A DNA stretch of 64,000 nucleotides from Ascidiella aspersa (Eukaryota), in NCBI GenBank assembly GCA_963924565.1, contig OZ004609.1:22382001-22446000 (forward strand). Direction: 5' to 3'. Positions 5,910 through 57,095 of the stretch are shown here, piece by piece. Numbering within the stretch: the stretch's first letter is position 1; every line of letters begins with the position of its first letter. The position numbers were made by a program, and so were the translations under genes. A model generated the notes under the pieces. That model searched no databases, was not told the origin of the DNA, and saw nothing but the letters and a program-made list of their open reading frames with translations.

Positions 5910-5916
5910 AAAAAAA
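5910..5916 (-). terminator. Pol III oligo-T terminator of the 7SL gene
   Basis: A7 on the + strand directly after the 7SL 3' end. Confidence 0.85.
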
Positions 5917-6213
5917 GAGTTGGGTCCTGCTGTATCGAATGGGCTACGACACCTCGCCTATTCACAGGCGCTATCCCGCTACTGATCGACGTGGGAACTT
6001 TTGGCTGCTCCCTTGCGGGCCTGGCCCGGTTCGTTCCTCCTTAGACAACCTGGACATCTCAGGCTCCCCCGAGATCTCCATATTGACGCCGAGCTTAGCG
6101 CGGACGCCCGATCGACATAGGTCAATGCGCCGCAGAACTCCCATTCTCAAGCCGTCCTCCAACTCAAGCCTCCGAAGTCGCTCGGATTACAGGCCCACAC
6201 CAACGAGCCCGGC
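5910..6213 (-). ncRNA. RN7SL: Signal recognition particle RNA (7SL), Pol III gene
   Basis: Minus strand begins GCCGGGCTCGTTGGTGTGGGCCTGTAATCC (Alu domain); contains helix-6 GGAG loop and helix-8 CCAGGCCCGCAAGGGAGCAG; ends GACCCAACTC followed by T7; ~300 nt. Confidence 0.95.
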
Positions 6214-16350: not shown

Positions 16351-18026
16351 ATGGCAGGTAATATGTTATTTTTACTTATTCTGACTGTTTTGTTTGCAAT
16401 TACAATAAAGTATTGGAAGCAGTTTGTGGAATTACTTCGCTTCAGGATTAAATTACGAAGACTTCCTTGGTATAATAGAATAGCCTACCCCATCATCGGA
16501 CATGCCTACTTGCTGCCCAGGGACACGGCCGACTTTTTTCGATTTATAACAGTACAAATGAACGACTATATTCTGGAAACTAAAAACAAATTCTGGCTAA
16601 ACTGGCTTGGACCCGTTCCAATGATCGCGGCGGTGCACCCAGACGTGGTTGAAGTTATTCTTCGAAGTTCGAAGCACACCCAAAAGTCTTTCGTGTATAA
16701 CTTCCTGCACCCTTGGCTTGGATTTGGCCTGCTTACTTCAAGCGGCGAAAAATGGCTTCAGCGCAGGCGCCTGATCACTCCGTCATTTCACTTCAACATT
16801 TTGCAGGAGTTTTTGGATGTGATGAACGAACAGAGTTCGAAGATGCTTAAACTTGTTAAAGCGAATAGAGGTGCGGGAATTCAAGTTGATCTGAGTAAGG
16901 CCGTCACTTTATGTGCCCTTGACATCATATGCGAGACGGCAATGGGACAAAGTGTTGACGCACAGGCAAACGAGGATTCGGAATATGTCAAATCAATAAA
17001 CAGGTAAAATTTGTGAAAAGTTGGCAAATGCCGTTTTTTAAGATTTTGCTTCAAACTCTGCCTGGACTAACTTATATAAGATAATGTATCTTTATGAAAT
17101 CGGAAACCATTGGTGTTTCACTAGGGTTTTTAAAGTGTTATAGTTTACTGTAATAACTTACATACGTTTTTATTAGGATGACAGAAATTGTACAGCTTCG
17201 CCAAAAGACTCCATTTTATTGGTGGGACTATGCATTTAAGAAGTTGAAGCTGGGAAAAGAACATGACCAGCATCTCAAAGTCCTTCATGGCTTCACTAAA
17301 AAGGTTATCAAAGAGAGAATTAAAACCAAGGACGAAAAAAATATCTCAAGGCGTATGGCATTCCTGGACGTTTTGATTCACGCCAAAACTGAAGATGGAG
17401 ATTCGCTCTCGCTCTCTGACATCCAAGAGGAGGTCGATACTTTCATGTTTGAAGGTCACGACACGACAGCTGCCGCTATGACGTGGTGCCTCTATCTCCT
17501 TGGAAGACACCCTGAAATACAAAAGCGCGTTCATGAAGAAATTGACGAGGTGCTGCCTGGTGACCGCCAACCCGGTATGGAAGACCTGAAAAAACTTAAG
17601 TACTTAGAACAAGTCATAAAGGAAGCTCTTCGCCTTTATCCTTCGGTTCCGCTAATGGCGAGAGTGACAACTGAGGATTGCCTGGTGGAAGGTTACACGA
17701 TTCCCCCAAACACAGACGTAGTAATCCAAGTATACAACGTTCACAGACACCCGATGGTTTGGCACGATCCCGACAGGTTTGACCCGGATCGCTTCACGAA
17801 AGAGAACAGCATCGGTCGCCACCCTTACGCCTACATTCCCTTTTCGGCTGGTCCAAGAAACTGCATCGGCCAGAAGTTTGCGCTGATGGAAGAGAAAGTG
17901 ATTCTTTCTCGACTGCTTCGCACTTACCGCATCACGTGTGATACCCCAGATAACGATTTAAAGATCACCGGGGACTTGATACTTCGTCCGTTGGATCAGC
18001 TAATCTTTCACATGGTCGAGCGTTAA
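16351..18026 (+). CDS. Cytochrome P450 family 4 (CYP4V-like) #1; exons 16351-17003 and 17177-18026
   Basis: N-terminal anchor, FLHPWLG, WLQRRRLITPSFHF, EEVDTFMFEGHDTT, EALR, FDPDRF, heme motif PFSAGPRNCIG. Confidence 0.95.
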
Positions 18027-18902
18027 ACAATAGCAGAAGCAGAAGACTTTTGTACATAGCAGAACTGAGAAATAGCAGTCAACAGTCTATTTTATGTTTT
18101 AGTGTTTTCTTCATTGTCGATTGATATCGCTACTTTTTATTGCAATTGCTCGTAATCTTTGCTTACAACATCCAGTGCAAATTTCAAACGCTTTTTATTG
18201 GTCGTAAGACTTTGGCGGCAATAACATTCATTAAAGAGAAAAAACTAAAATTTGCAAACGGTGAAAGCGCAATGGGGTCATTGCTGCGCACAGTGAAAAT
18301 CTTTTAAAGGTAGTGCGTAAAAGTAAAAAAAGGAATGCTTTAAACGTGTTTTGAGAACAGGGTTAAAATTCGGAAGCGGTAAGTTAAATTTAACAGTCGT
18401 AAATTTTGATTTAGACTATTTTGAAACTTTTCAAGAGCTCAAACAGGACACATAAAAATAATCATTACAATTTTCTAGCGCAACCTAATAATACTGGTAG
18501 ATTTTTAACATTTAATACAGCACTAGAGCACACGATTATCAATCTGAACACACAGCCTTGCTCAAACTTGCTCAGCAATCGTACAAAGCGCACGCAACAA
18601 ATAAAACAATTTGGCGACAGTGAAAAAATAGAAACTTTTTGCGAAAAAAACACATTGTTTTAAGCAATCACTTGCCACACAGTATGGAAACCCAGCGCAG
18701 GGCAACAAATGAAGTGATGAGATGGAACACTTTTTGGTTTCGCAACGTCGAGCAATCGTACACGAAAAAGTCAAGTGAACGCCCCGCCCAATGATAGGTT
18801 GTTAGGTACAGTGCTACACCTGAATTAAAGAGGAACACACAATAAGACCTAAAAAGCAACATTACCGAAAAATCTATAAAACCATAGTGTACGAACTGTG
18901 TT

Positions 18903-21900: not shown

Positions 21901-24900
21901 CAAACTGTACTACAATTTATTAAGGCTCACTACATTTATTATTGCATAATTATTTCACGAAAAAGACGTTCTTCCATAATTAAAGATTAAAGTGGAGTTG
22001 ACTTTTATTTAATTAAAAATATTTATATGACAAAATTTAGAAATGAATGCCTGTTAAGGACTATTTCACGTGGAATCACGAATACTGAACAGCGGGCCTA
22101 TTGAGGACACGTGAGGAACAGTTAGGCTACAATTATCCAGTTTAGAATGTGAGCTGATAAATCCTAGCCCTTGCTTTTAAAGTGGCCAACATGGGGTAGC
22201 TCTTCAATCACGCACCTGATCGATGAAGATGATCTTGTGAAGCTGGATGAGTGCCTGTTGAACCGGATCGCTGATCTCGCGAAGTTTGCTCGGAGACATG
22301 CTCAGCATCCGAGCAGATCCGGAGGTGGAGGAGGCTGCAAGGAAGACGACTCAGTTGGAAGAAAAATCGCAAGTGATTCTCGAACAAGGAAGTATATCTT
22401 ATGAATGGAGGTTGTAATTGCCAGGGAGTCTTGTTTTTACAAAACGACTTTTGGGCGACGCTATTCACACTTTAAAATGTTTGATCCCAGAGCCTTTTAG
22501 ATCCAGTTTCTCACTGCTGGTTATACTTACATGGTCGGCTTCGGGCAGAATACTGTCCTCTAGCTTGTTCTCGCGACGCAGTGATCCGATTTAGAGAAGA
22601 AGGACGCTGATCTGAAGAACCGTTTCGATTGCCTGTGCAAAATGCATTATTAATTAAAATATGCTTTAAATAGCGTGGTAGTATCGATAAGGTGGTTTCA
22701 CTGTTGAGCTGATGTTTGTCCAACAATTTCGGATTGAGCTGTTACTCGATGTCAAGCGATAGTATCGGTACTTATTCAATACTAGGGTAGTATCAGTACC
22801 AACCAATATCACATTAAGTTTAGCATTTAATCCATGATTTATCTAATTAGCGTTTTCCACTTCAAACTGTAATTATTTTAGAAAGTAGCATATTACCAAT
22901 AAAGGTAACGAAGTTTTTCAGCGCTAGACCACGATTTTTTCTTAACGACACCACCCCCAATTGTGGAATAAGGCAATGCGACCGTATTATTACTATTTAC
23001 CATATTCAAAGTAAAATTGTATTATAAACTTGCCCAAATCACTTTTAGCAATGGTCATTATTACCCGTGCAAGTTTTAATTGACTATATATCTTAATTTT
23101 TAGAAACATGGCTATATATTTCCGCATTATTATACATTTCAAATTATAACAATTGTGTTGCAATCCACCCACTGTTTCGGCTTGTCGAATGCTCTACGGA
23201 AGTAATATTTACTTTGCATGCTTAATTGCTTACACAAGATCACCGTCTCATGTTCGCACATAGGTAAATGATTAGCAGAACCATAGCTCGCTTTTAACGC
23301 CAGGTGACTAACCATCAAAGGAAAACATAACACTGAACAAACATAATAAAAAAAATCGTTTTACACAGCAAAAAAAACATGTATTTAGAGGCAAACTGTT
23401 GGCTTTGAAATTATGTTGACATTCAAAACCAACCGGTCATGTCGAAGCTGAGGGCTCTTCGTGGTGCTGCGTTCCTCAGGTCGGGACTGGGTGGATGCGG
23501 TTGCCTAGAACCGGCTGAAACCGGTCTTGCCCGGTTGCTATTCTTGCTCGGCGTTTCTTCTGTAGACAAGCAGTAGTTTTTACCAGTTAGTAAGGGGCTT
23601 GTGAATTAACAGTGCTTTCCTATAGTTATTCAAAGTTTATTTGTGGAAGAAAAGACAAATATAACTTAAGTTAACGCACGTCCGCTGAGAATATGTGTTA
23701 CTTTTACCCGACATTTCGATCTACGTTTATGTTTCTTGACTAACCTTGAGCAGTGTCGTTTCGCACTTGTCCTGATAATGATTCGAAGCCCAATGATTCA
23801 GTATTCTCGTCGCCTTAAAAATAGAAATGTTTAAGTTGTATAATGCTTAATAATGGCGCTGTTTCACGGTCAGTTTGACTGGCTTTTTAGACAGTTTTCG
23901 AACAAATTTAAAATACTTTTAAAGACAAAAGCCAGGACATTTAAACCAAACGGCGAAACAAAATACCAGGGACAGTCAAATCAGCGAAATTCGATTGTTC
24001 GATGTCAAAGTGTAGCCCTTAAACGTTTGGGCACAAGCCCAGTAAAGCAACCATGAAACCAACGCATAGCGCTTAAGTTTAGCAACCTTTCCTTGTATCC
24101 TTGATGACATCGTTTATCTCATCCTGTTCGACCAAACCGTTCTTATTCAATAACTCACCGTTCGCGCTGAACACCTCAGTGTCGCTCGAGTTGGTTCGCG
24201 ACGGGCTTGTCGTGGCCTGTGATGACGTCACGCTTCCGGCGGAGATCTCCAAAGGCTTGCCCAAACGTTCCGAGCTTTCCTGCGCAACGTTAGTGGTAAA
24301 TATGAAGTAGACGTATATGCGCTGAACAATGTGAATCGTCACAATGAAAAGAATGTTGCTTGATAATGCATTGCAAAGCCGAAAAGCTAGATCAGTGGTT
24401 TTAACCTTTTATGCTTCGTGGCCCCCTTTGAAAGGTTCTCGACCCTCGTGCCCCCCTGCTTATAAAAATACCAAGCATTGTGTTTAACGTATTTACTTAA
24501 CTTGGTTAGTCATTATAAATCTTATTCTTCGACGCCATCAAGGTATTTTTTATCTTCGGCTCTGTTTTGTACTGAGACAAGCGATGTCACTACATTCGTC
24601 GAGATGATTACTCGATTTTCCTTTTATTAATGCGTTGCTATAAGTCTACGTGACAAATAAGTTGTGCGTGAACCGCTTAATGTTGGCCTAAAAATGACCT
24701 TGAATAACCCTGTAGCATGCTTTATGCCAGTGGTCGGCAAACTTTTTTGTCGCGGCCCAAAGTACTCTTTTCGGGGCTATTGAAGGCCCGCGTAAAACCA
24801 TTTGATTTTAAGATGAAATATAACACGGTGCCTTGGTGCCCCAAAGACTACCATTCGCGCGAAAAAAAATTCAATTACATACAGTTTAAGTTGGCAAAAA

Positions 24901-27900
24901 TATAGTTCGACAGGCTCTCAGGACCACATTTGGCACGCGGGCCTTTCCAAGCTGAGCCAATTTAAAAATTCTATGCCACACCAACTTTAAAATAAAGTGT
25001 AATGAATGTACGATTGTACGACTATCACGCGGCCCACTAAAAATGGCTCTGCGGCCCACATTTGGGCCGCGGCCCTCAGTTTGCCGACCACTGGTTTATG
25101 CGTTGTACGATAGAACGTTTTTGTGCAACTGCACGTTCTTAAAGGAAATTGCGAACCGTTGCACCTGTCAATACACACTAGTTGCTCGCCGAACAGCATT
25201 TGTCGGACACTTAATGATTAGGCAAGGGTATAGGCCTAATAATTGGCCGCCCGAAAAAACGCTGACGGCTGACGCCGCACTACATGGCTACGTATGAAGC
25301 AGAACACAGTAGACCTTTAACCAAACTTGCCACTCGCGAACGACAAATTAGGCGTAACTTTTTGCGATAAAACGAATAAAAATGATCCAACATTCTAATT
25401 TAAACATCCCTACTGACAAGTCAAAGCACGTGTCAGAAAAATGTGTTACAAAATGTTACAAGAAAGGTTTACAATCATAATAAAAACACAAAATTAAGTT
25501 GACTGGTAAATTTTGAAAATAGTGATACTTTGGTTTTCCCAATATCTAGATAGAGAGTTATGCCCGTGCCCCCCCAATGACCGCTCCGTGGCCCCCCAAG
25601 GTGGCCGAGGGCCACGGTTAAGAAACCCTGAGGTGAGCTAGATCGTCATTACCTTGATTGACGTTTCGATACGAGCTGGTATCATCTTCAGTTAATGTGA
25701 CTGAGAAGCAATTCAAGCATCACTTAAAAAAAGGTGGGACGCAATTGTTATCAGCCTGAGTTCTATAGTTGGAGGCTTGGAGCATTCAAGATAATGTCGA
25801 TCTACTCCACCTTTTGGCTTTGCAATTCATTATCAAGCTTCATTACTGATACGTGCATAGTGTTCTACTTATGTATAATATTTTTAAACACACACAAAAA
25901 TCAAGAAATAGTAATTCTAAATGAACAAAGCATGTCTTTTGCATTAAGTCTATTCAAAATACAGGAAAATCCTATGTCCAACACAAAAAAGACAAAAAGT
26001 TAAAGACATAAAAAGTAGCAACAAGAAACCTGCAAAATAAATCAAAAAACAGCTCCTCTGGTAATTTTAATTAGTTAATTAATTGCTGTTTAATCTGTTT
26101 TTTTTATTTATAACACTATGCCTGGTAGCAACAGTTTATACCTGCGATGCCTGGCACATCATCTGGTAGTCCTGCATGTATCCGCGCGCCTCGTTGAAAT
26201 GATGCTGCGTCCTTCGCCGTTCCTTTTCAAGCCGCTTTTCGGACGCCAGGTAGTAGCCGGTGATGGTGTCGGTGTAATGCAGCACCTTCTCAGCGATGAA
26301 GCCGCTCACCTCCACAATGTTAGGACGCTGGTCCGGATCCACCGTCAGGCACCTGAACGCCGTCAAAAGAAAAATTACAGAGGCGCAAGTTTGGATTGCG
26401 AGTGTAAATATATAGAATGGCAATGGGACGTAGTTGGATTGCAATCTACGACTCAGCTTTTAATACTTAGGCCCCCCCTTATGGACCCTGTACTTTCTGC
26501 GTAGCAAAATAAGCATGATGGTTCGAAAGTAGGGACATTTGTCGACGTAAAGGAATCCTAATTGACAGGTACGGGTGGTTTTTTAAGGCTAGCTAACTCG
26601 CTGTGCCTAAATATTCTGCCAATTCTTCAAGTTCGTTGGGACTCCTTTACAAAGTGAACTCGGTGGGAGAACGCATAAAACAAAAACAACCAAGCCGTTT
26701 CTATTAATCCGATCACGTGCTTAAAACGACTTGGAAAAGTACAATCGTATTGTGGAAATGAAACGTATTTACTGTTAAGAGTTTCTGCGATAATCTAAAT
26801 TAGACGAGACAAAACTATTTAAAAAAAATTGAATGCAACTTAGAAGCCTTTTTATTCGACTCACCGCCTTGCAGTCTGTTGCACCAGGTTTGAGTAGCCG
26901 CGGTCGCTCGGTATCTGTGAGAACTTGCCCTCCACGATCTTGTTGGCGATGGTGAGGATGTTAGAGCCGAGGAAGGGAGGGTCGAGCATCGCCATCTGGT
27001 AGAGGATGCAACCTGAAATGAAAATACTTTAGCAATTTGAAGTATGTGCATTGAACCTTTACCGGATTGGACAAAATATATTTAAAGCGGTCTGAAGAAC
27101 TGTGTTTCGAACGGCGAACGCGCAACAACTATTTTGTATCACTAGTGTCAAATAGCTGTCTTGCTTAATAAAGTAGATGTAACTGTTGTTTCACGTATAG
27201 CATATAATACGTTTGGTTTCTCCAATTAACAAAAACCTTTTTTACTATAATTTTAATGAAAACGAACCAAATGACAAAGTCCTGTCACAAAAAACTAATC
27301 GAGTACTTGATCAATAAAAGCTAAATCGAGTACTTGATATGATAGACTTTGGTCGGTGAAAGTAAGACGTATACAAATCTGCTATAAAATACAGAATTGT
27401 ACCGTAAAACATTTGGTACTTTTGATCCTATAGTCACATAGTGTATCGATTATATCAACACAACCGTCCCAGACCACTTTAAAAACTCGGCTTGCCAAAA
27501 ATACAGCTTCTGAGGCCACAGTTTTCATGCTTACCAAGCGGCCAGATATCCGCTTTGTCGCCGTAGGGTTCGTTCTTGACCATTTCCGGGCAAAGGTACA
27601 TCATCGTTCCCACGGTCGAGAGCATTTTCGAGTTCTCCTTTTTCTGACGCGCCAGGCCGAAGTCGGCTGCCGACAGACAAAAAAAGGTCAGAGGAGCTTG
27701 AACTAAAGTAGTAGGGAAAACAAACCTGTTTTTTCCTGGAAAAAGGTAGGCACTTACTTATTGTCACTTTGTCGTTCTCCCCAAGCATGACGTTGTTGGG
27801 CGTGAGGTCCCGGTGAACGATCCTCTTGTCGCAGTGGAGATAGCGCAGAGCGAGGCACATCTGGAATACGCGCACACGATTACAAAGACAAAAACATAAA

Positions 27901-44389: not shown

Positions 44390-44531
44390 GCTATTGCTGC
44401 CAGGCATAATATCAAATTTGTACAGCTCTTCTGGCAAATGTAATTTTTATTCCGACGTTTCGACGTCCTATACAGAACGTCGGAAACGGAAATAAAAATT
44501 ACATTTGCCAGAAGAGCTGTACAAATTTGAT
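44390..44531. mobile_element. Penelope-like inverted remnant (second family) with partial hammerhead
   Basis: Perfect 41-bp inverted arms 44411-44451 / 44491-44531; minus strand GACGTTCT-GTAT-AGGACGTC-GAAAC-GTC; 13-bp flanking direct repeat attgcattgataa. Confidence 0.65.
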
Positions 44532-44908
44532 TGCATTGATAAATTGAATTGTGTCTGCACCAAAAACCTAAGTTACGTTTTATACGATTTCAACAACGTA
44601 CACAAACTTTGCGTTGATTTAATAAACAGACCTATACCAGAAAACTGATATACGGTTTAAAGGAGTAACAAAAATATACGGTTCAAAGAACATAACACGC
44701 ATCGCTATGTTTTAGGTCAAGAGTAACTTAATATGACTTAAATTTATTCTTCCACAACCTTTAAAGGACAAATGTAGCATAGGCAGCATAAGACTAATAT
44801 TGCATTTACACACATATTGCATTGATAAATTAAACTGGCTGCGCCATAAAATTAAGACACATTATACCGGCGTGAAATTATTAAAACGCACATTTCGATG
44901 GCTAAAAT

Positions 44909-46615
44909 TTATCGTGTTTCCAAATGAAACTTCAAAGGCTCAAGCGGGCGAAGAATCAGGTCTCCGATCATTTTTAAGTCCTCTTCTTCTGTATCACATC
45001 GGACGCGATAGGCTCGTAACAGTTGAGACAGAATTACTTTCTCTTCCATCAGCGCAAACTTCTGGCCGATGCAGTTTCTTGGACCAGCCGAAAAGGGAAT
45101 GTAGGCGTATGGGTGGCGACCGACGCTGTTCTCTTTGGTGAAGCGATCCGGGTCGAACCGCGTTGGATTTTCCCAAACCATCGGATTTCGGTGAATATTG
45201 TAAACTTGAACCATTACCTCCGTGTTCTTTGGAATCGTGTAACCTTCCATCACGCAATCCTCAGTTGTCACTCTCGCCATCAGCGGAACCGAAGGGTAAA
45301 GGCGAAGAGCTTCCTTGATGACTTGTTCTAAGTACTTAAGTTTTTTCAGGTCTTCCATATCGGGTTGGCGGTCACCAGGCAGCACCTCGTCAATTTCTTC
45401 ATGAACGCGCCTTTGTATTTCTGGGTGTCTTCCGAGCAGGTATAGGGACCACGTCATAGCGGCAGCTGTCGTGTCGTGACCTTCAAACATGAAAGTATCA
45501 ACCTCCTCTTGGATGTCAGAGGGCGAGAGCGAATCTCCATCTTCGGTTTTGGCGTGAATCAAGACGTCCAGGAATGCCATACGCCTTGAGACATTAGCTT
45601 TATCTTTATTGGTCATTCTTTCTTTAATAACGTTGGCCGTGAAACTTTTTAGGACGTCGAGATGATGTTCATGTTCTTTACCTAGCTTTAGTTTCTTAAA
45701 AGCGAAGTCCCACCAGTAATAAGGTGTCTTCTGGCGAAGCTGTATGATTTCCGACATTCTAAACAATAACCATGTTAATTTCAAATATAAAATAAACCGT
45801 AAGTTATAGATACATAAAATGAGGGGGCAGATTCAAGCCACTTTGTTGCAGCAAAATTTTAGAAAACAATGCTTAGTGGTAATTCGTACTTTAACATAAA
45901 TTTTAACCATCCACAGAATCATGCACGTAATAGGATGTATAATACATGATATGAAGTTTTACCTGTAAATTGATTTTACGTATTCTGATTCCTCGTTTCC
46001 CTGTGCGTCCACATTTTGTCCCATGGCGGTCTGGCAGATGGTGTCAAGGGCACATAGGGTCACGGCTTTGCCAAGGTCTACGTTGGCACTTGACGCTCGC
46101 TTAATTTGCAGCCGTTTAATCATGCGCAAAGTCTGCTCGTTCATCACTGACAGAAAGTCTTGAAGAATGTTGAAGTGGAAAGTCGGGGTGATCAGTCGTC
46201 GACGTTGCTGCCACTTCTCGCCTCCGGCAGTTAAGAGTCCAGTCCCCAGCCAAGGGTGCAGAAATGTGTACAAAAAAGACTTCTGAATATGCCTTGACCC
46301 GTGAAGAATAACTTCGGCCGCATCGGGGTGTACAACACATACTACCGGTACAGAACTGATCCAACCCACCCAGAACTTGAGGCTTGAATCCGTAATGAAA
46401 CTCAACGATTCGGAGGCCATAAAGCGAAAAAACTCAGCGGTATCCCTCGGCAGCAAATACGCGTGTCCGATCAGCGGATAAGCAATCCTGGGAATTGTGG
46501 GAAGGCGCCGAATCTGTATCCGGTAGTAAATTGTTTTCGAGATTCTTTTCCAAAACTTAATGACGATGAGAGAAAGAATGGTTAAAAACGCAATTGTGGC
46601 GGCAAATGTCTCCAT
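44909..46615 (-). CDS. Cytochrome P450 family 4 (CYP4V-like) #2; exons 46615-45963 and 45758-44909
   Basis: Same CYP4 motifs (FEGHDTT, EALR, PFSAGPRNCIG) and same intron position as #1. Confidence 0.95.
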
Positions 46616-50551: not shown

Positions 50552-52904
50552 ATGTCTTCTGTTGCTATTCTTGTGGCAATAGCTTTTGTTTCTACCCTTA
50601 TGATAACGTACTGGAATTCTTTAAAGTCAATCATAAAGTATAGGCATGTTGTGAGGCGACTTCCAACTATTCCAAACTGGGCCTTTCCGATAATTGGCCA
50701 TACCTACCTTTTGGCCGGAGACCCGTCTCAATTCTTTAGTTGTGTTTGTGGATTGGCTGACCGAGTGATTAAGGAATGCAAGGCGAAAATTTCAATGCTT
50801 TGGCTCGGTCCAATTCCAATGGTCTTCGTTGTCCACCCAGAAGCCGCCGAAGTGATACTTCGTAGCTCCAAGCACATGGAAAAGTCATATCTGTACACCT
50901 TTCTTCATCCCTGGCTTGGCACCGGCCTTCTTACATCCGGCGGCGAAAAATGGTTTCAGAGGAGGCGCCTAATCACGCCATCCTTCCATTTTGAGATTCT
51001 GAAGGATTTCCTTGAAGTGATGAACGAGCAAAGTCAGACCATGCTGAAATCCGTGGAAGGAAAGCTAACGTCGGGCAATAAAGTAGATCTCGGGAAGACA
51101 GTCACCCTGTGCGCTCTCGACATTATCTGCGATACAGCTATGGGAAAGACGGTCAACGCTCAGGAGAATGACGACTCAGAATACGTGAAATCACTTTACA
51201 GGTCTGTGAAAGCCATTATGTATTAAATACAAATTTCAATTAGGAATTATCTACTGGTACAAATAAAAGGTTTTAATATAGGCACTTTGATACCTTATTC
51301 AATCAAAGTAATATATTATATTAGGAAAACTATTTTTCCGCGCAAGAAACCAAAACAAATTGTACCGTACTGAGAAAAAATGAGACTCAAATATTTATGT
51401 TTTTAGCTGTACATATTTAACACAAATCTCAAAACCATTTTAGGCAATCTACTTAAAGGGTAGTCCTACTTATCTTCTTTTATTAACAAACAATGAGAAT
51501 GTAGGGATTCATTACAAATTAAACTTATTGTACAAGTAAGCTAAACAATATGTACATTGCTCACTTTGAATATTAAAAATAATTTGAAAAATAATCATGG
51601 TCAAAGCGGGCAGTAAAAATTGAAAAATGTCTCTTCGTTGAAAAATGTCTCTTTGTATAGAAAATGAGCCCGGGTCGCTAAATTTGCTTATCGGGCCGGA
51701 CAAAGTTAAATTGCTTATCGGGCCGGACAAAGGTCCGATACTTGTTATTGTGGCAAGTTACGACACAACTCGAACTTTGGAGCCCTGTTCAGAATCACTA
51801 TTTGCTAAATAAGTTAAATATTTGCTTTTTAGCAAAAATGTTAAATAAGTGCTGGATTTGCGTGTTTAGCGTTTGCTTGTTTTATAGGGTCGTACATGAA
51901 TGTACTCACGTACACATTTTACCATTAAAATAAGTGTCCATTTTTCAATAAAATATTTGCTTTAAGTTTAATAAAATAGTTTAGTTTATTTTACGATAGA
52001 AAAGCAACTAAAATGTGAAAGAGCATTTCCATGTTTTTATACTAGGATTGCTGAAATAGTGCAGCTTCGACAAAAGACGCCTCCGCTCTGGCCAGATTTC
52101 ATATTTAAACGGTTGGGAACAGGAAAAGAACACAATCACCACCTTCATGTCCTTCACAGCTTCAGCAAATCCGTCATAAACCAAAGAATCAAAGACAAAA
52201 ACGAAACAAATATTAAACGGCGTATGGCATTCCTGGACGTTTTGATTCACGCCAAAACCGAAGATGGAGATTCGCTCTCGCCCTCTGACATCCAAGAGGA
52301 GGTCGATACTTTCATGTTTGAAGGTCACGACACGACAGCTGCCGCTATGACGTGGTGCCTATATCTACTCGGAAGACACCCAGAAATACAAAAGCGCGTT
52401 CATGAGGAAATTGACGAGATTCTTCCTGGTGACCGCCAACCCGATATGGAAGACCTGAAAAAACTTAAGTACTTATCACAAGTTATCAAGGAAGCTCTTC
52501 GCCTTTATCCTTCAGTCCCATTTTACGGAAGGGTCACGACAGAAGATTGCGTGATGGATGGTCATGTTGTACCCAAAGGATCTCAGGTCGTCGTTTTCAC
52601 TTATAGCATTCATAGAAATCCGATGGTTTGGGAAAATCCAACGCGGTTCGACCCGGATCGCTTCACGAAAGAGAACAGCGTCGGTCGCCACCCATACGCC
52701 TATATTCCCTTTTCGGCTGGTCCAAGAAACTGCATCGGTCAGAAGTTTGCACAGATGGAAGAAAAGGTCATATTGCTTCAACTTCTTCGGCGTTACACTG
52801 TCACATCGCATGACGTGGAGGAAACAATAAGCAAAGATGGGGATCTTATACTTCGCCCTACTAAGCCTATTAACTTCACTATTGCAAAAAGGAGCCGCAA
52901 TTAA
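50552..52904 (+). CDS. Cytochrome P450 family 4 (CYP4V-like) #3; exons 50552-51201 and 52046-52904
   Basis: Same CYP4 motifs and same intron position as #1 and #2. Confidence 0.95.
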
Positions 52905-53335: not shown

Positions 53336-54508
53336 AGGAGCACGTTGAGAAACAATCATAACACAATTGCATGCTGCATTCTATTCGCACATACAACCTC
53401 AATTAAAGAGAGAGTTAATAAAAAATAAATTTTATTGTTCTCAACTTAACAGATGTTTGACGTGCTTTGCCGTTGTGTTATAAGTCCTTCAGCGGTTTTA
53501 ATAGTTACCAATTTTCAGTTTCAAGCTAGATTTTACTTATGTTGTTTGTGGGGAAGCATTGTAGGTTAACCGATTTTACACACACGATGCCTCTGACGAA
53601 GATATTATGCTTTATTTTTTATAATCATGGGCTATAACACGAGGCTAGCAGTTTAACATGTGACCCCGTAATAAACAATGATGTAGAGCCCAAAGCATAT
53701 ACCCGACCGATTTCATACACAATAAATAACATTACTGTCGGTTACATTTTAAATTACTGTATATGGCCGTATTTGTCCTAATTCTAAATAGATTGACCAC
53801 GCTTTTGCGAGCATGTGCCTGTGGATATGTTAGACGTCACCATTCTTATCGCCTTTTACTTGCGCCTGTGCTTTTACATGCATTTTAATTGTTTTCATTT
53901 ATACTTTGACCTGATGAAGCACGGTTGTGCGAAAGCTTGTCGAGAATCAAATACAATTTGTCTTTATACAGTGCCACCTGATTTCTCTATTTTAAATTAC
54001 ACGTTCCTGTATTTTACACTTACAAGGAAATGGTAGGCCTACACGATAATATGCGATGGCGATCAACAATTAATCAACTTTGATGGCAGCAAAAGGCTCA
54101 AGATTTGCAAAACAACTTTTACTGTTTCTAACTTTAAAACTTTTATGTTTAAGAACTTCCTGATGTTTGTTACCGCGCAAAATTTAGGTATGGAGTTCGC
54201 AAAACTTTTCCGTTTAATGCGGCGGTTTTAATAGTAACCAATTTTAATTTTACGTACTTAATTTTTGGACGCAATATGGTACCGGGATTACCTGTAAAAC
54301 CTCTTGACGAAAAGGTTCAAACTGTTTCAAACATTTATAAGGCAATAACCTGCGTGAAGTACGGTAGGCTACATTGCCTGGGTAAAAATGAAATTTCATG
54401 TGGCAAAGTTTATACTTTTATGTTTAATAGCTTTTTACAATATGGTGGTTATTGTAGCAGGTATAATTAACTTTTAACCAGTTAGAATAACTGGTAAATA
54501 TTCTATTC

Positions 54509-54538: not shown

Positions 54539-55457
54539 TATTATTTAATACGCTTTATTAGGGCGAAAACATGCCAGTTGGGCTAAAAAAAACATCAAAA
54601 GACTCAAAAACTTACACAAAATTATAAAGTGATTTTTGTCACTTATTTGGCTTACTTTGCTCGAATAAATGTGATTTGGGTATTTTTTTAAACTTTTGAT
54701 AAAGCCATGATGGGTCACTAAAAAGGAATGTCTGATAATATCATATCGGAGGCGATACCGGATGCCAAGTGGTATTGGTAGTATCGATACTCCTGTGGTA
54801 TAGTTCAGTGGTGTCGGTGCCAATCCGATACCAATTTATTATGTGAATTTTATCCATAATTTACGATCCAAGACTACGCTACAGACCCTTTTCAAAAAAT
54901 AAATTTTTCAGGCATTCGCCGATCACGCATTAATGCTTCTGACAGGAACTGAATTAAACAAATGAATCGAACCTTAGAATTTTTGCAAAACAACTTTAAA
55001 ATGGTGATTTATTATAAGTCACATCACTATGTTGTTGTGTAGTAATGTTGATTGTACGTAAAATAGCTTTAGTACATGCAGTGACAGCAAACTGACTTAA
55101 AAATAACTAAAAATATTTAGTGGACAAGCCAAGCGTAGCCAAACAAAAACAGGATGCACATCTAATAATCATATAAGTTTTTCTACTTTTGTTATTTCGT
55201 CAACCAAACGCTAACCCGCACCCTAACCCAAACAATATGCGTTGTGGTATGCGACATTTAAAGAAAGTTTTTTTTATCAATTTTCACATATATAATAAAA
55301 GAGCGCCCATTTTCGTCCTGGGGTTTATGTTGCTACAACATTTGGGTTGGGTAGGTCAAGTAATATGATTATTATATAATTCTATCATATTTATGCCTTT
55401 TCATGGAATTTTTAAACATTATTGACCAATACATTAATTTTGGAGCCACTATTCCTG

Positions 55458-56261
55458 GGGTAATACTAATTTACGGAATGATGAATGGTCGGAACGCTCA
55501 CTAATTTACGGAATGGTCGGAATGGAATGAATAGGGCTGAAACTAATTTGATGAATGGTCGGAACGGAATGAACTGTCGGAACTATCGGAATGGAATGAA
55601 TGATGCTGAAGGAGCAGAATGAAATGAACGAAGCTGTAGGAACAGAATGAACTGTCCGAATAGAACGAACTGTTGGAATGGAATGAAGGACGCTGTAGGA
55701 GCAGAATAACCTGTCGGAATGAAATGAACGAAGCTGTAGGAACAGAATGAACTGTCCGAATATAAAACGCAGCTGTTAGGGTTAGGGTTACAGTTCATTC
55801 CTAACCCTCACCCTAAAAGCTTCGTTCATTTCATTCCGACAGTTCATTCCTAACCCTAACCCTAACAGCTTCGTTCATCTCATTCCAACAGTTCATTCTG
55901 TTCTTACAGCTTCGTTTATTTCATTCCGACAGTTCATTCTGTTCCTACAGCTTCGTTTATTTCATTCAGACTGTTCATTCTGTTCCTACAGCTTCGTTCA
56001 TTTCATTCCGACAGTTCATTCTGTTCCTACAGCTTCGTTCATTTCATTCCGACAGTTCATTCTGTTCCTACAGCTTCGTTCATTTCATTCCGACAGTTCA
56101 TTCCGTTCCGACAGTTCATTCTGTTCCTACAGCTTCGTTCATTTCATTCCTACAGTTCATCATATTCCTACAGCTTCGTTTATTCCATTCCGACAATTCC
56201 GACCATTCCGTAAATTAGTGAGCGTTCCGACCATTCATCATTCTGTAAATTAGTGTTACCC
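55458..56261. mobile_element. Foldback (MULE-like) element with modular TIRs and an internal 41-bp minisatellite
   Basis: Perfect 9-bp TSD ctattcctg (55449-55457 and 56262-56270); TIR GGGTAATACTAATTTACGGAATGATGAATGGTCGGAACG; 41-bp unit acagttcattctgttcctacagcttcgttcatttcattccg; TTAGGG/CCCTAA tracts at the centre. Confidence 0.85.
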
Positions 56262-56671
56262 CTATTCCTGTAAAATTCAGTATAGTGATACAAATGAAAC
56301 TAAAATCTTCCATAAACCTTTTTATAATTGGCCTGTAGCCCCACAAGGATCATTTACAAGGGCTGCTAGGCCAGTCTGGAAAGTATGGCAGATTTTGACA
56401 AGATCTTGTTGGCAAACGGCCTGCATTTTATGATTTTCCGATGCACTCTGTATGGCATACATTGCACTGTAAACCACCAATACAAACTAAGTATAGTTTA
56501 CTAATACAAACTAAGTATAGTCAACCCAGTTTACTAAATTAGACCCAGAGGGACGACCATAGATATAGCTAAAAGATCTTTCAAGCCTAGTGTTCATTCT
56601 GTTAAATCTTAGATGGCATCCTTTTCGTCATACTTACAACATAACAATTTTTTGATAACATCTTAGTTGGT

Positions 56672-56812
56672 TACACTATGCACGGATCTGTAATGTAGCT
56701 TAATAATAAATTTCAAAGCCAAAAAGGTCGAGTAGATGATACAAGTTCGTATCGAAACGTCTTAATCAAGATGCTGTCGATCTACTCGACCTTTTTGGCT
56801 TTGAAATTTATG
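56672..56812. mobile_element. Penelope-like inverted remnant, same family as the 25.7-kb copy
   Basis: Perfect 32-bp arms 56706-56737 / 56780-56811; loop AGATGATACAAGTTCGTATCGAAACGTCTTAAT; 9-bp direct repeat ttagttggt. Confidence 0.7.
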
Positions 56813-57095
56813 TTAGTTGGTCATATAAAACCATATGAAGCTTATATTTTTTAAGTGTTATCTCCTTTAAATTTATTTCCTTGTGTCTTTTTAATATAGT
56901 TTTATCGCATATAAGTCAATTGCATGTTTTAATTTGTTTAAAAAAAAATATCTTTCAAAAGCAACTCCGACAAATAAATACTTTTGTTTAGTTTACAAAG
57001 CATATGTAAACTCTAATGCACTTTCTAGGCTTAAGGTCTAACTTTTGTTTCAAAGCGATTTCTTGCCAATTGTTTGATTGCATGTGTGTAAAAGC

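What the first reader, a model, noticed from the sequence alone, without database searches (positions are those of the whole stretch)
25657..25696. Minimal type I hammerhead ribozyme rebuilt from two complementary Penelope-like remnants
Seen: the minus strand here reads attaa-CTGAAGA-T-GATAC-CAGCTC-GTATC-GAAAC-GTC-aatc. The sister copy (56734-56766, +) reads AGA-T-GATAC-AAGTTC-GTATC-GAAAC-GTC-ttaat. This copy keeps the CUGANGA box but has lost 2 nt of helix I. The sister keeps helix I (ttaat pairs with attaa) but lost CUGA at its inversion junction. The consensus is a complete core with almost no helix III, and the two helix-II differences fall in the loop. Known: such minimal hammerheads typify Penelope-like element pLTRs and are proposed to cleave as dimers.
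Basis: partly seen in the sequence, partly recalled or inferred. Interest (0 to 1): 0.7.

Follow-up and report, generated by a model that had tools for sequence, protein, structure and literature searches.

The report
Broken Penelope retrotransposon end with hammerhead
This is one broken copy, among hundreds in this animal genome, of the end of a Penelope-like jumping gene that carries a well-known minimal self-cutting RNA motif; this copy likely no longer cuts, and the only unexpected point is that short copies tend to begin just in front of the motif, which likely marks where the element's RNA starts.

Summary
The motif is real and is a known-type minimal type I hammerhead of a Penelope-like element (PLE). 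It need not be rebuilt from two remnants: the genome holds 562 exact core-plus-helix-II matches (reversed control 0), and 39 of 91 examined copies keep a helix I of at least 5 bp. Longer copies carry an RT plus GIY-YIG-type ORF ending about 100 nt upstream; sister families have intact 843-848-aa ORFs in tandem, with the core kept and helices rewritten compensatorily. The window copy lacks helix I and is split by a 1.24-kb MITE; the sister is another subfamily, on the opposite strand, 31 kb away. Both are likely dead. No sign of cleavage in one RNA run or in copy ends. New observation: in three families the 5' ends of copies cluster 39-42 nt before the cleavage site, at an initiator-like motif (12 vs 1.7, 8 vs 1.9, 15 vs 1.8 expected), not at the cleavage site. 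This likely marks the transcript start and suggests uncleaved templates. The scan noted similar PLE stubs elsewhere in this genome.

The parts
25657..25696 (-). Minimal type I hammerhead of PLE family A: helix I 5' strand 25696-25692, CUGANGA 25691-25685, unpaired U, helix II 25683-25668, GAA, ACGU palindrome 25664-25661, C17 25660; 2 nt missing after C17, so no helix I
25631..25785 (-). Sense arm: 5'-truncated pLTR (part of the 3' UTR, initiator-like TCACATT at 25700-25694, hammerhead, first codons of the predicted ORF start)
   Evidence: ORF-start homology to intact family B
25786..25863 (+). Inverted second arm: 3' end of the element including most of the ~29-nt tail
24393..25630 (.). About 1.24-kb MITE with short terminal inverted repeats (hAT-like by recalled terminal pattern) inserted in the sense arm; a second MITE nested at about 24728-25095
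   Evidence: read by eye
24352..24386 (-). Remainder of the sense arm beyond the MITE, ending in the short 3' end class
56663..56821 (+). Sister insertion: 9-bp TSD, inverted arm with tail (56737-56664, -), sense arm 56734-56811 starting inside the core (CUGA absent), TSD

Best explanation
The site is a decayed, 5'-truncated, head-to-head insertion of the end repeat (pLTR) of a Penelope-like retrotransposon, likely of the Penelope/Poseidon group, and its minimal hammerhead lacks helix I and is likely inactive. Shown: family membership, the upstream RT + GIY-YIG-type ORF in longer copies, two 3' end classes about 29 nt apart, inverted arms, a conserved core with compensatory helices across five families, and a 5'-end hotspot just upstream of the motif. 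Inferred: in the parent element the hammerhead sits at the very 5' end of the RNA, would cleave after C17 only when two copies pair their ACGU palindromes or the element's protein assists folding, and is not needed for copying. The RT would start inside the first codons of the ORF; on an uncleaved RNA that begins at the initiator this gives 100-125-nt cDNAs that hold little but the hammerhead, which would explain the many solitary copies.
For: 562 exact matches, control 0. ORF with RT motifs and a YIG-R-H-E-N endonuclease ending about 100 nt before the core in L044/L051; RVT_1 above cut-off for 2 of 4 family-A pieces given; family A is about 50% identical to intact family B over most of the ORF; GIY-YIG Pfam hit E 7.5e-4, below cut-off, in family D only. 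3' ends: 49 of 91 at +50..+64, 33 of 91 at +82 or more, 9 other. Inverted arm in 61 of 91, 0 of 200 shuffles. Five families keep core, extra base, palindrome and pairing with different helix letters; D has the U3-A8 core described in PMC4209133. Breakpoints near the initiator-like A: 12 of 63, 8 of 53, 15 of 55 vs 1.7, 1.9, 1.8 expected; at the cleavage site 2, 6, 2 vs 2.7, 2.9, 2.1. Internal RT start, tail, protein-assisted cleavage and use of unprocessed RNA were shown for an anole PLE (PMC11167929).
Against: No intact full-length family-A master was found (capped searches, lower bounds). Cleavage was not tested. Helix I is short or mismatched in 52 of 91 exact-core copies. The hammerhead fold is not the predicted optimum (monomer -3.1 vs -6.0; double form -6.9 vs -20.9 kcal/mol). 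RNA run X5 shows both strands about equally, almost no ORF reads and no pile of ends, at neither the cleavage site nor the initiator. Family B has a slight excess at the cleavage site (6 vs 2.9, p 0.08). Clade assignment rests on one missing linker motif, with no tree.
Confidence: 0.88

Rival explanations
1. Same element, but the 5'-end hotspot is not a transcript start: it is made by the element's endonuclease nicking an ATT-like motif during resolution, or by RT falling off after it has crossed the ribozyme fold.
For: The anole PLE endonuclease prefers 5'-ATT-3' (PMC11167929); families A and F have ATT at the hotspot. No RNA 5' ends were seen there.
Against: Family B has no ATT there yet shows the peak; the peak is narrow inside a long T-rich tract in F; a TATA-like motif lies about 30 nt upstream in A and B (spacing rule recalled); one B copy starts at this point and runs on past the tail into the ORF (L405).
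Confidence: 0.3
2. The two remnants, or dispersed copies in host transcripts, complement each other in trans: the window copy gives core and helix II, the sister gives the cleavage site and the 3' strand of helix I, and host RNAs are cut.
For: The geometry is possible on paper: 5 bp of helix I plus 4 bp of palindrome. The motif region is abundant in RNA on both strands (depth 116-330).
Against: Nine mostly A-U pairs; the copies are on opposite strands 31 kb apart; even linked dimers of such motifs cleave poorly in vitro (PMC4209133); no read ends pile up at the site; any of hundreds of better copies would do as well.
Confidence: 0.03
3. A non-autonomous retrozyme or SINE-like family with its own defined ends that spreads through circular RNA.
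For: Most copies are short and ORF-less; animal retrozymes are reported to derive from pLTRs (bioRxiv 10.64898/2026.07.22.740005, abstract and introduction).
Against: Retrozymes are head-to-tail tandem units; among the 100 listed exact matches I count 1 same-strand pair within 1 kb and 6 opposite-strand pairs. Copies are nested 5' truncations of an ORF-bearing element.
Confidence: 0.06
4. Chance resemblance to a hammerhead; the conserved letters reflect protein coding at the ORF start.
For: In families B and D the ORF runs in frame through the motif.
Against: In family A that frame stops inside helix I and in C inside loop II (read), yet the motif is kept; helices covary across families, including the distant family F.
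Confidence: 0.02

Closest known systems
Minimal hammerheads (min-HHR) in pLTRs of metazoan PLEs (Cervera and De la Pena 2014, PMC4209133; parts 1-2 of 4 read)
   Same: Type I, no stable helix III, palindrome at 15.1-16.1, one unpaired base before helix II, G10.1-C11.1 pair, 4-5-bp helix I, mostly solitary copies, some opposite-strand pairs; U3-A8 variant in a sister family.
   Different: Helix II is 5 bp rather than the 7-8 bp of Schistosoma; another host; this copy lacks helix I.
PAc, Poseidon element of Anolis carolinensis (Frangieh et al. 2024, PMC11167929; parts 1-2 of 4 read)
   Same: Hammerhead overlapping the ORF start, two 3' end classes that define a tail, C-terminal GIY-YIG, no RNA reads ending at the cleavage site.
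   Different: In family A the AUG at helix II meets a stop in helix I and the likely ORF starts about 10 nt after the cleavage site; 3' ends lie about 57 and 86 nt after that site; activity untested here.
Penelope elements with inverted pLTR, tail and TSD in Adineta vaga (PMC3846280; passages read) and Drosophila virilis Penelope (PMC2377424; passages read)
   Same: Head-to-head arms, tail on one arm, 8-10-bp TSD, microhomology junctions, TATA- and initiator-like motifs in the pLTR.
   Different: D. virilis starts 46 bp before a 75-bp intron that ends at helix I; here the inferred start lies 2-9 nt before helix I and no intron was seen.

Membership tests
Minimal type I hammerhead of PLEs | CUGANGA and GAAA-UH core | tested here: met
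Minimal type I hammerhead of PLEs | Helix II with G10.1-C11.1 and one unpaired base before it | tested here: met
   compensatory pairs across five families
Minimal type I hammerhead of PLEs | Palindrome in place of helix III | tested here: met
   ACGU
Minimal type I hammerhead of PLEs | Helix I closing the motif, in this copy | tested here: not met
   0 of 6 pairs in register
Minimal type I hammerhead of PLEs | Helix I closing the motif, in the family | tested here: met
   at least 5 bp in 39 of 91, 3 bp in 23 of 91, fewer in 29 of 91
Minimal type I hammerhead of PLEs | Self-cleavage after H17 (dimer or protein-assisted) | not testable with these tools
   indirect looks negative or uninformative
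EN+ Penelope-like element | RT ORF with DKG, MGSP and RYVDD motifs | tested here: met
   in longer copies; absent from the window copy
EN+ Penelope-like element | C-terminal GIY-YIG endonuclease | tested here: met
   Y, YIG, R, H, E, N invariant in 5 of 5 aligned; Pfam hit only for family D and below cut-off; none for family A
EN+ Penelope-like element | pLTR with inverted or tandem arrangement, tail and TSD | tested here: met
   no TSD seen for the window copy itself
EN+ Penelope-like element | Intact full-length family-A copy | tested here: inconclusive
   none found in capped searches
Penelope/Poseidon clade | No CX2-5CxxC linker before the endonuclease | tested here: met
   absent in A and B, present in family F; criterion from PMC8557442
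Penelope/Poseidon clade | RT phylogeny with reference elements | not tested
   no reference sequences fetched
Non-LTR retrozyme | Head-to-tail tandem units each with a hammerhead | tested here: not met
   1 same-strand pair among 100 listed of 562 matches

The most novel reading that the evidence does not exclude
In PLEs of two clades the hammerhead occupies the first ~45 nt of the element's RNA. Transcripts start at an initiator 7-14 nt before C3, and internal RT initiation on these uncleaved RNAs yields promoterless 100-125-nt 'hammerhead-only' copies. The thousands of solitary minimal hammerheads in animal genomes would then be a by-product that maps the start site, and cleavage would act as a decapping switch on the mRNA rather than as a step in making the template.
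Probability: 0.4. Interest if true: 0.55.

Novelty: new member of a known kind. Interest (0 to 1): 0.27.

Why it matters
The locus itself is ordinary decayed mobile DNA. The side result could matter to PLE specialists: the role of PLE hammerheads is stated to be unclear (PMC8557442), and copy-end statistics give a cheap genomic test of whether templates are cleaved and where the RNA starts. The genome also holds intact tandem PLEs with a canonical core (B) and a U3-A8 core (D) that suit in vitro work.

Tried and rejected
Rfam scan: no hammerhead family hit. Pfam and PDB searches with the family-A endonuclease: nothing relevant; the protein atlas gave no answer. Search for a full-length family-A copy by ORF DNA, tail continuation and N-terminal protein: none. 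Idea that arms end at the cleavage site: rejected for A and F, weak for B. Idea that the hotspot is a cis- or trans-splice acceptor: no shared upstream sequence among hotspot copies by eye, and F has no AG there. No RNA holder listed by the run index. RNA run X5 (about 6 in 100 read; fragment library, poor for ends): no joints shown, no end piles, intact family B ORF at depth 0. Lunse et al. 2017 not held; only its title was seen in a reference list. Paper searches showed no report of the 5'-end hotspot; they cover open-access text only, and no supplements were read, so prior description is not excluded.

Full report
Observation. The motif has a CUGANGA box (C3 at 25691), one unpaired U, a 5-bp helix II, GAA, an ACGU palindrome in place of helix III and C17 at 25660. 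A scan for core plus helix II found two sites in the window, this one and one at 53911; the stricter form had mean 0.0 in 100 sequences sampled from the window's dinucleotide model. Rfam reports no hammerhead here. The window is from a 308-Mb genome with a metazoan SRP RNA gene; earlier scan notes call the host a sea squirt, which I did not test.

A large family, not two remnants. The core-plus-helix-II pattern has 562 exact matches, the reversed control 0. I read 90 loci from the 100 places listed; they hold 91 distinct exact-core copies. Contiguous helix I is at least 5 bp in 39, 3 bp in 23, 2 bp in 14 and 0-1 bp in 15. L039 is a natural copy with the same loop as the window copy and a 5-bp helix I; against it the window copy lacks 2 nt after C17 and has no helix I pair in register. 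The two copies lie on opposite strands 31 kb apart.

The element. Upstream of the motif, longer copies carry the 3' end of an ORF with RT motifs and a YIG endonuclease that stops about 100 nt before C3. Two of four family-A pieces scored above the RVT_1 cut-off. The endonuclease piece had no Pfam or PDB match, but aligns with four other families at Y, YIG, R, H, E and N, one of which has a sub-threshold GIY-YIG hit. No cysteine linker precedes it, which by the criterion in PMC8557442 (passages) points to Penelope/Poseidon; no tree was built. I found no full-length family-A copy. A protein search found sister families with intact ORFs in tandem: B (848 aa open frame, L183) and D (843 aa, L185/L186; four units in a row on C9). 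The DNA after the cleavage site in family A translates to a peptide like the start of the B ORF, so the repeat is a pLTR that includes the first codons.

Insertion anatomy. 3' ends fall in two classes about 29 nt apart: 49 of 91 at +50..+64, 33 of 91 at +82 or more, 9 elsewhere; contig loose ends agree. An inverted arm lies upstream in 61 of 91 copies, 0 of 200 shuffles. This is the inverted-pLTR-plus-tail layout described in PMC8557442 and PMC3846280 (passages). The window copy has an inverted arm with tail (25786-25863), a sense arm (25785-25631), a 1.24-kb MITE, and the rest of the arm at 24386-24352. The sister is a compact insertion with a 9-bp TSD.

Is the motif selected? Five families keep the core, the extra base, the palindrome and pairing while helix letters change; D has the U3-A8 core that PMC4209133 (parts 1-2 read) reports from Schistosoma; helix I is weak in B (3 bp) and D (2 bp). 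Coding cannot explain it, since the frame through the motif is closed in A and C (read). Selection acted on the parent elements, not on this copy.

Does it cleave? Not tested. The hammerhead fold is not the predicted optimum as monomer (-3.1 vs -6.0) or as double form (-6.9 vs -20.9 kcal/mol). PMC4209133 found no monomer and low dimer activity for a similar motif; PMC11167929 (parts 1-2 read) found protein-assisted cleavage, not needed for insertion. In RNA run X5, 1178 reads were laid on a family-A copy: both orientations about equally over the motif and tail, depth 0-2 over most of the ORF, no pile of ends; intact B had no ORF reads. This fits passive read-through of scattered stubs; the library is poor for ends.

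An unexpected pattern. I asked whether copies begin at the cleavage site. They do not: within 3 nt of it there were 2 of 63 (A, tail-selected, 70 loci from 507 matches, deduplicated by flank), 6 of 53 (B, 50 loci from 235 matches, one duplicate dropped) and 2 of 55 (F, 50 loci from 184 matches), against 2.7, 2.9 and 2.1 expected. Instead 5' ends cluster just before helix I: 12, 8 and 15 within 4 nt of the A of an initiator-like TCA motif (-39, -42, -42), against 1.7, 1.9 and 1.8 expected (Poisson p 2e-7, 9e-4, 9e-10). A core-selected set of 92 family-A arms has its mode at -39. The A window was chosen after seeing the peak. The idea was noted before B and F were fetched, but the window first tested there (1-13 nt before C3) gave weaker values (p 1e-3, 9e-3) and the centred one was applied afterwards. 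The two arms of one insertion are not independent. A TATA-like motif lies about 30 nt upstream in A and B (initiator consensus and spacing recalled). I infer a transcript start: with RT starting inside the first codons, an uncleaved RNA that begins here gives a 100-125-nt copy holding little but the hammerhead. The rival cause is endonuclease nicking at ATT or RT drop-off. Searches showed no paper on this; supplements and closed journals were not seen, nor Lunse et al. 2017.

Verdict. A real, known-type minimal PLE hammerhead in a likely dead copy: new member of a known kind, interest 0.27. The start-site reading (probability about 0.4) would be of moderate specialist interest.

Noticed in passing
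window 53758-53999 (+), motif 53905-53944: A second minimal hammerhead (4-bp helix II, AGCU palindrome, 6-bp helix I, intact) in a stub of a young PLE family F, 97-99% identical among the best hits; longer copies have a GIY-YIG ORF with a CX4CxxC linker (Neptune-like). 184 exact matches of a downstream motif.
   Followed up: partly
L185/L186 and G000:C9:23487219-23495666: Family D: intact 843-aa PLE ORFs, a four-unit tandem array (2671-nt period), hammerhead with the U3-A8 core variant and only 2 bp of helix I.
   Followed up: partly
L183 (G000:C3:20856500-20864500): Family B: intact tandem with two nearly identical pLTRs and an 848-aa open frame running through the hammerhead; no ORF reads in run X5.
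   Followed up: partly
L236, L245, L088, L150: Four of 100 tail-bearing arms switch strand at the helix II hairpin (-24), a possible fold-back point.
   Followed up: no
L123 (G000:C2:22689338 and 22689700): Two same-strand exact-core family-A copies 362 nt apart, both with weakened helix I.
   Followed up: partly
window 5914-6213 (-): Metazoan SRP RNA gene, 265.5 bits.
   Followed up: no
window 44412-44530: Near-perfect ~119-nt hairpin with sub-threshold miRNA-family hits, probably a palindromic MITE.
   Followed up: no
window 55457-56262: Array of 41-nt repeats arranged as two inverted blocks.
   Followed up: no
window 16603-18034, 44901-46333, 50801-52796: Three copies of a ~1.4-kb dispersed repeat, 70-91% alike.
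   Followed up: no
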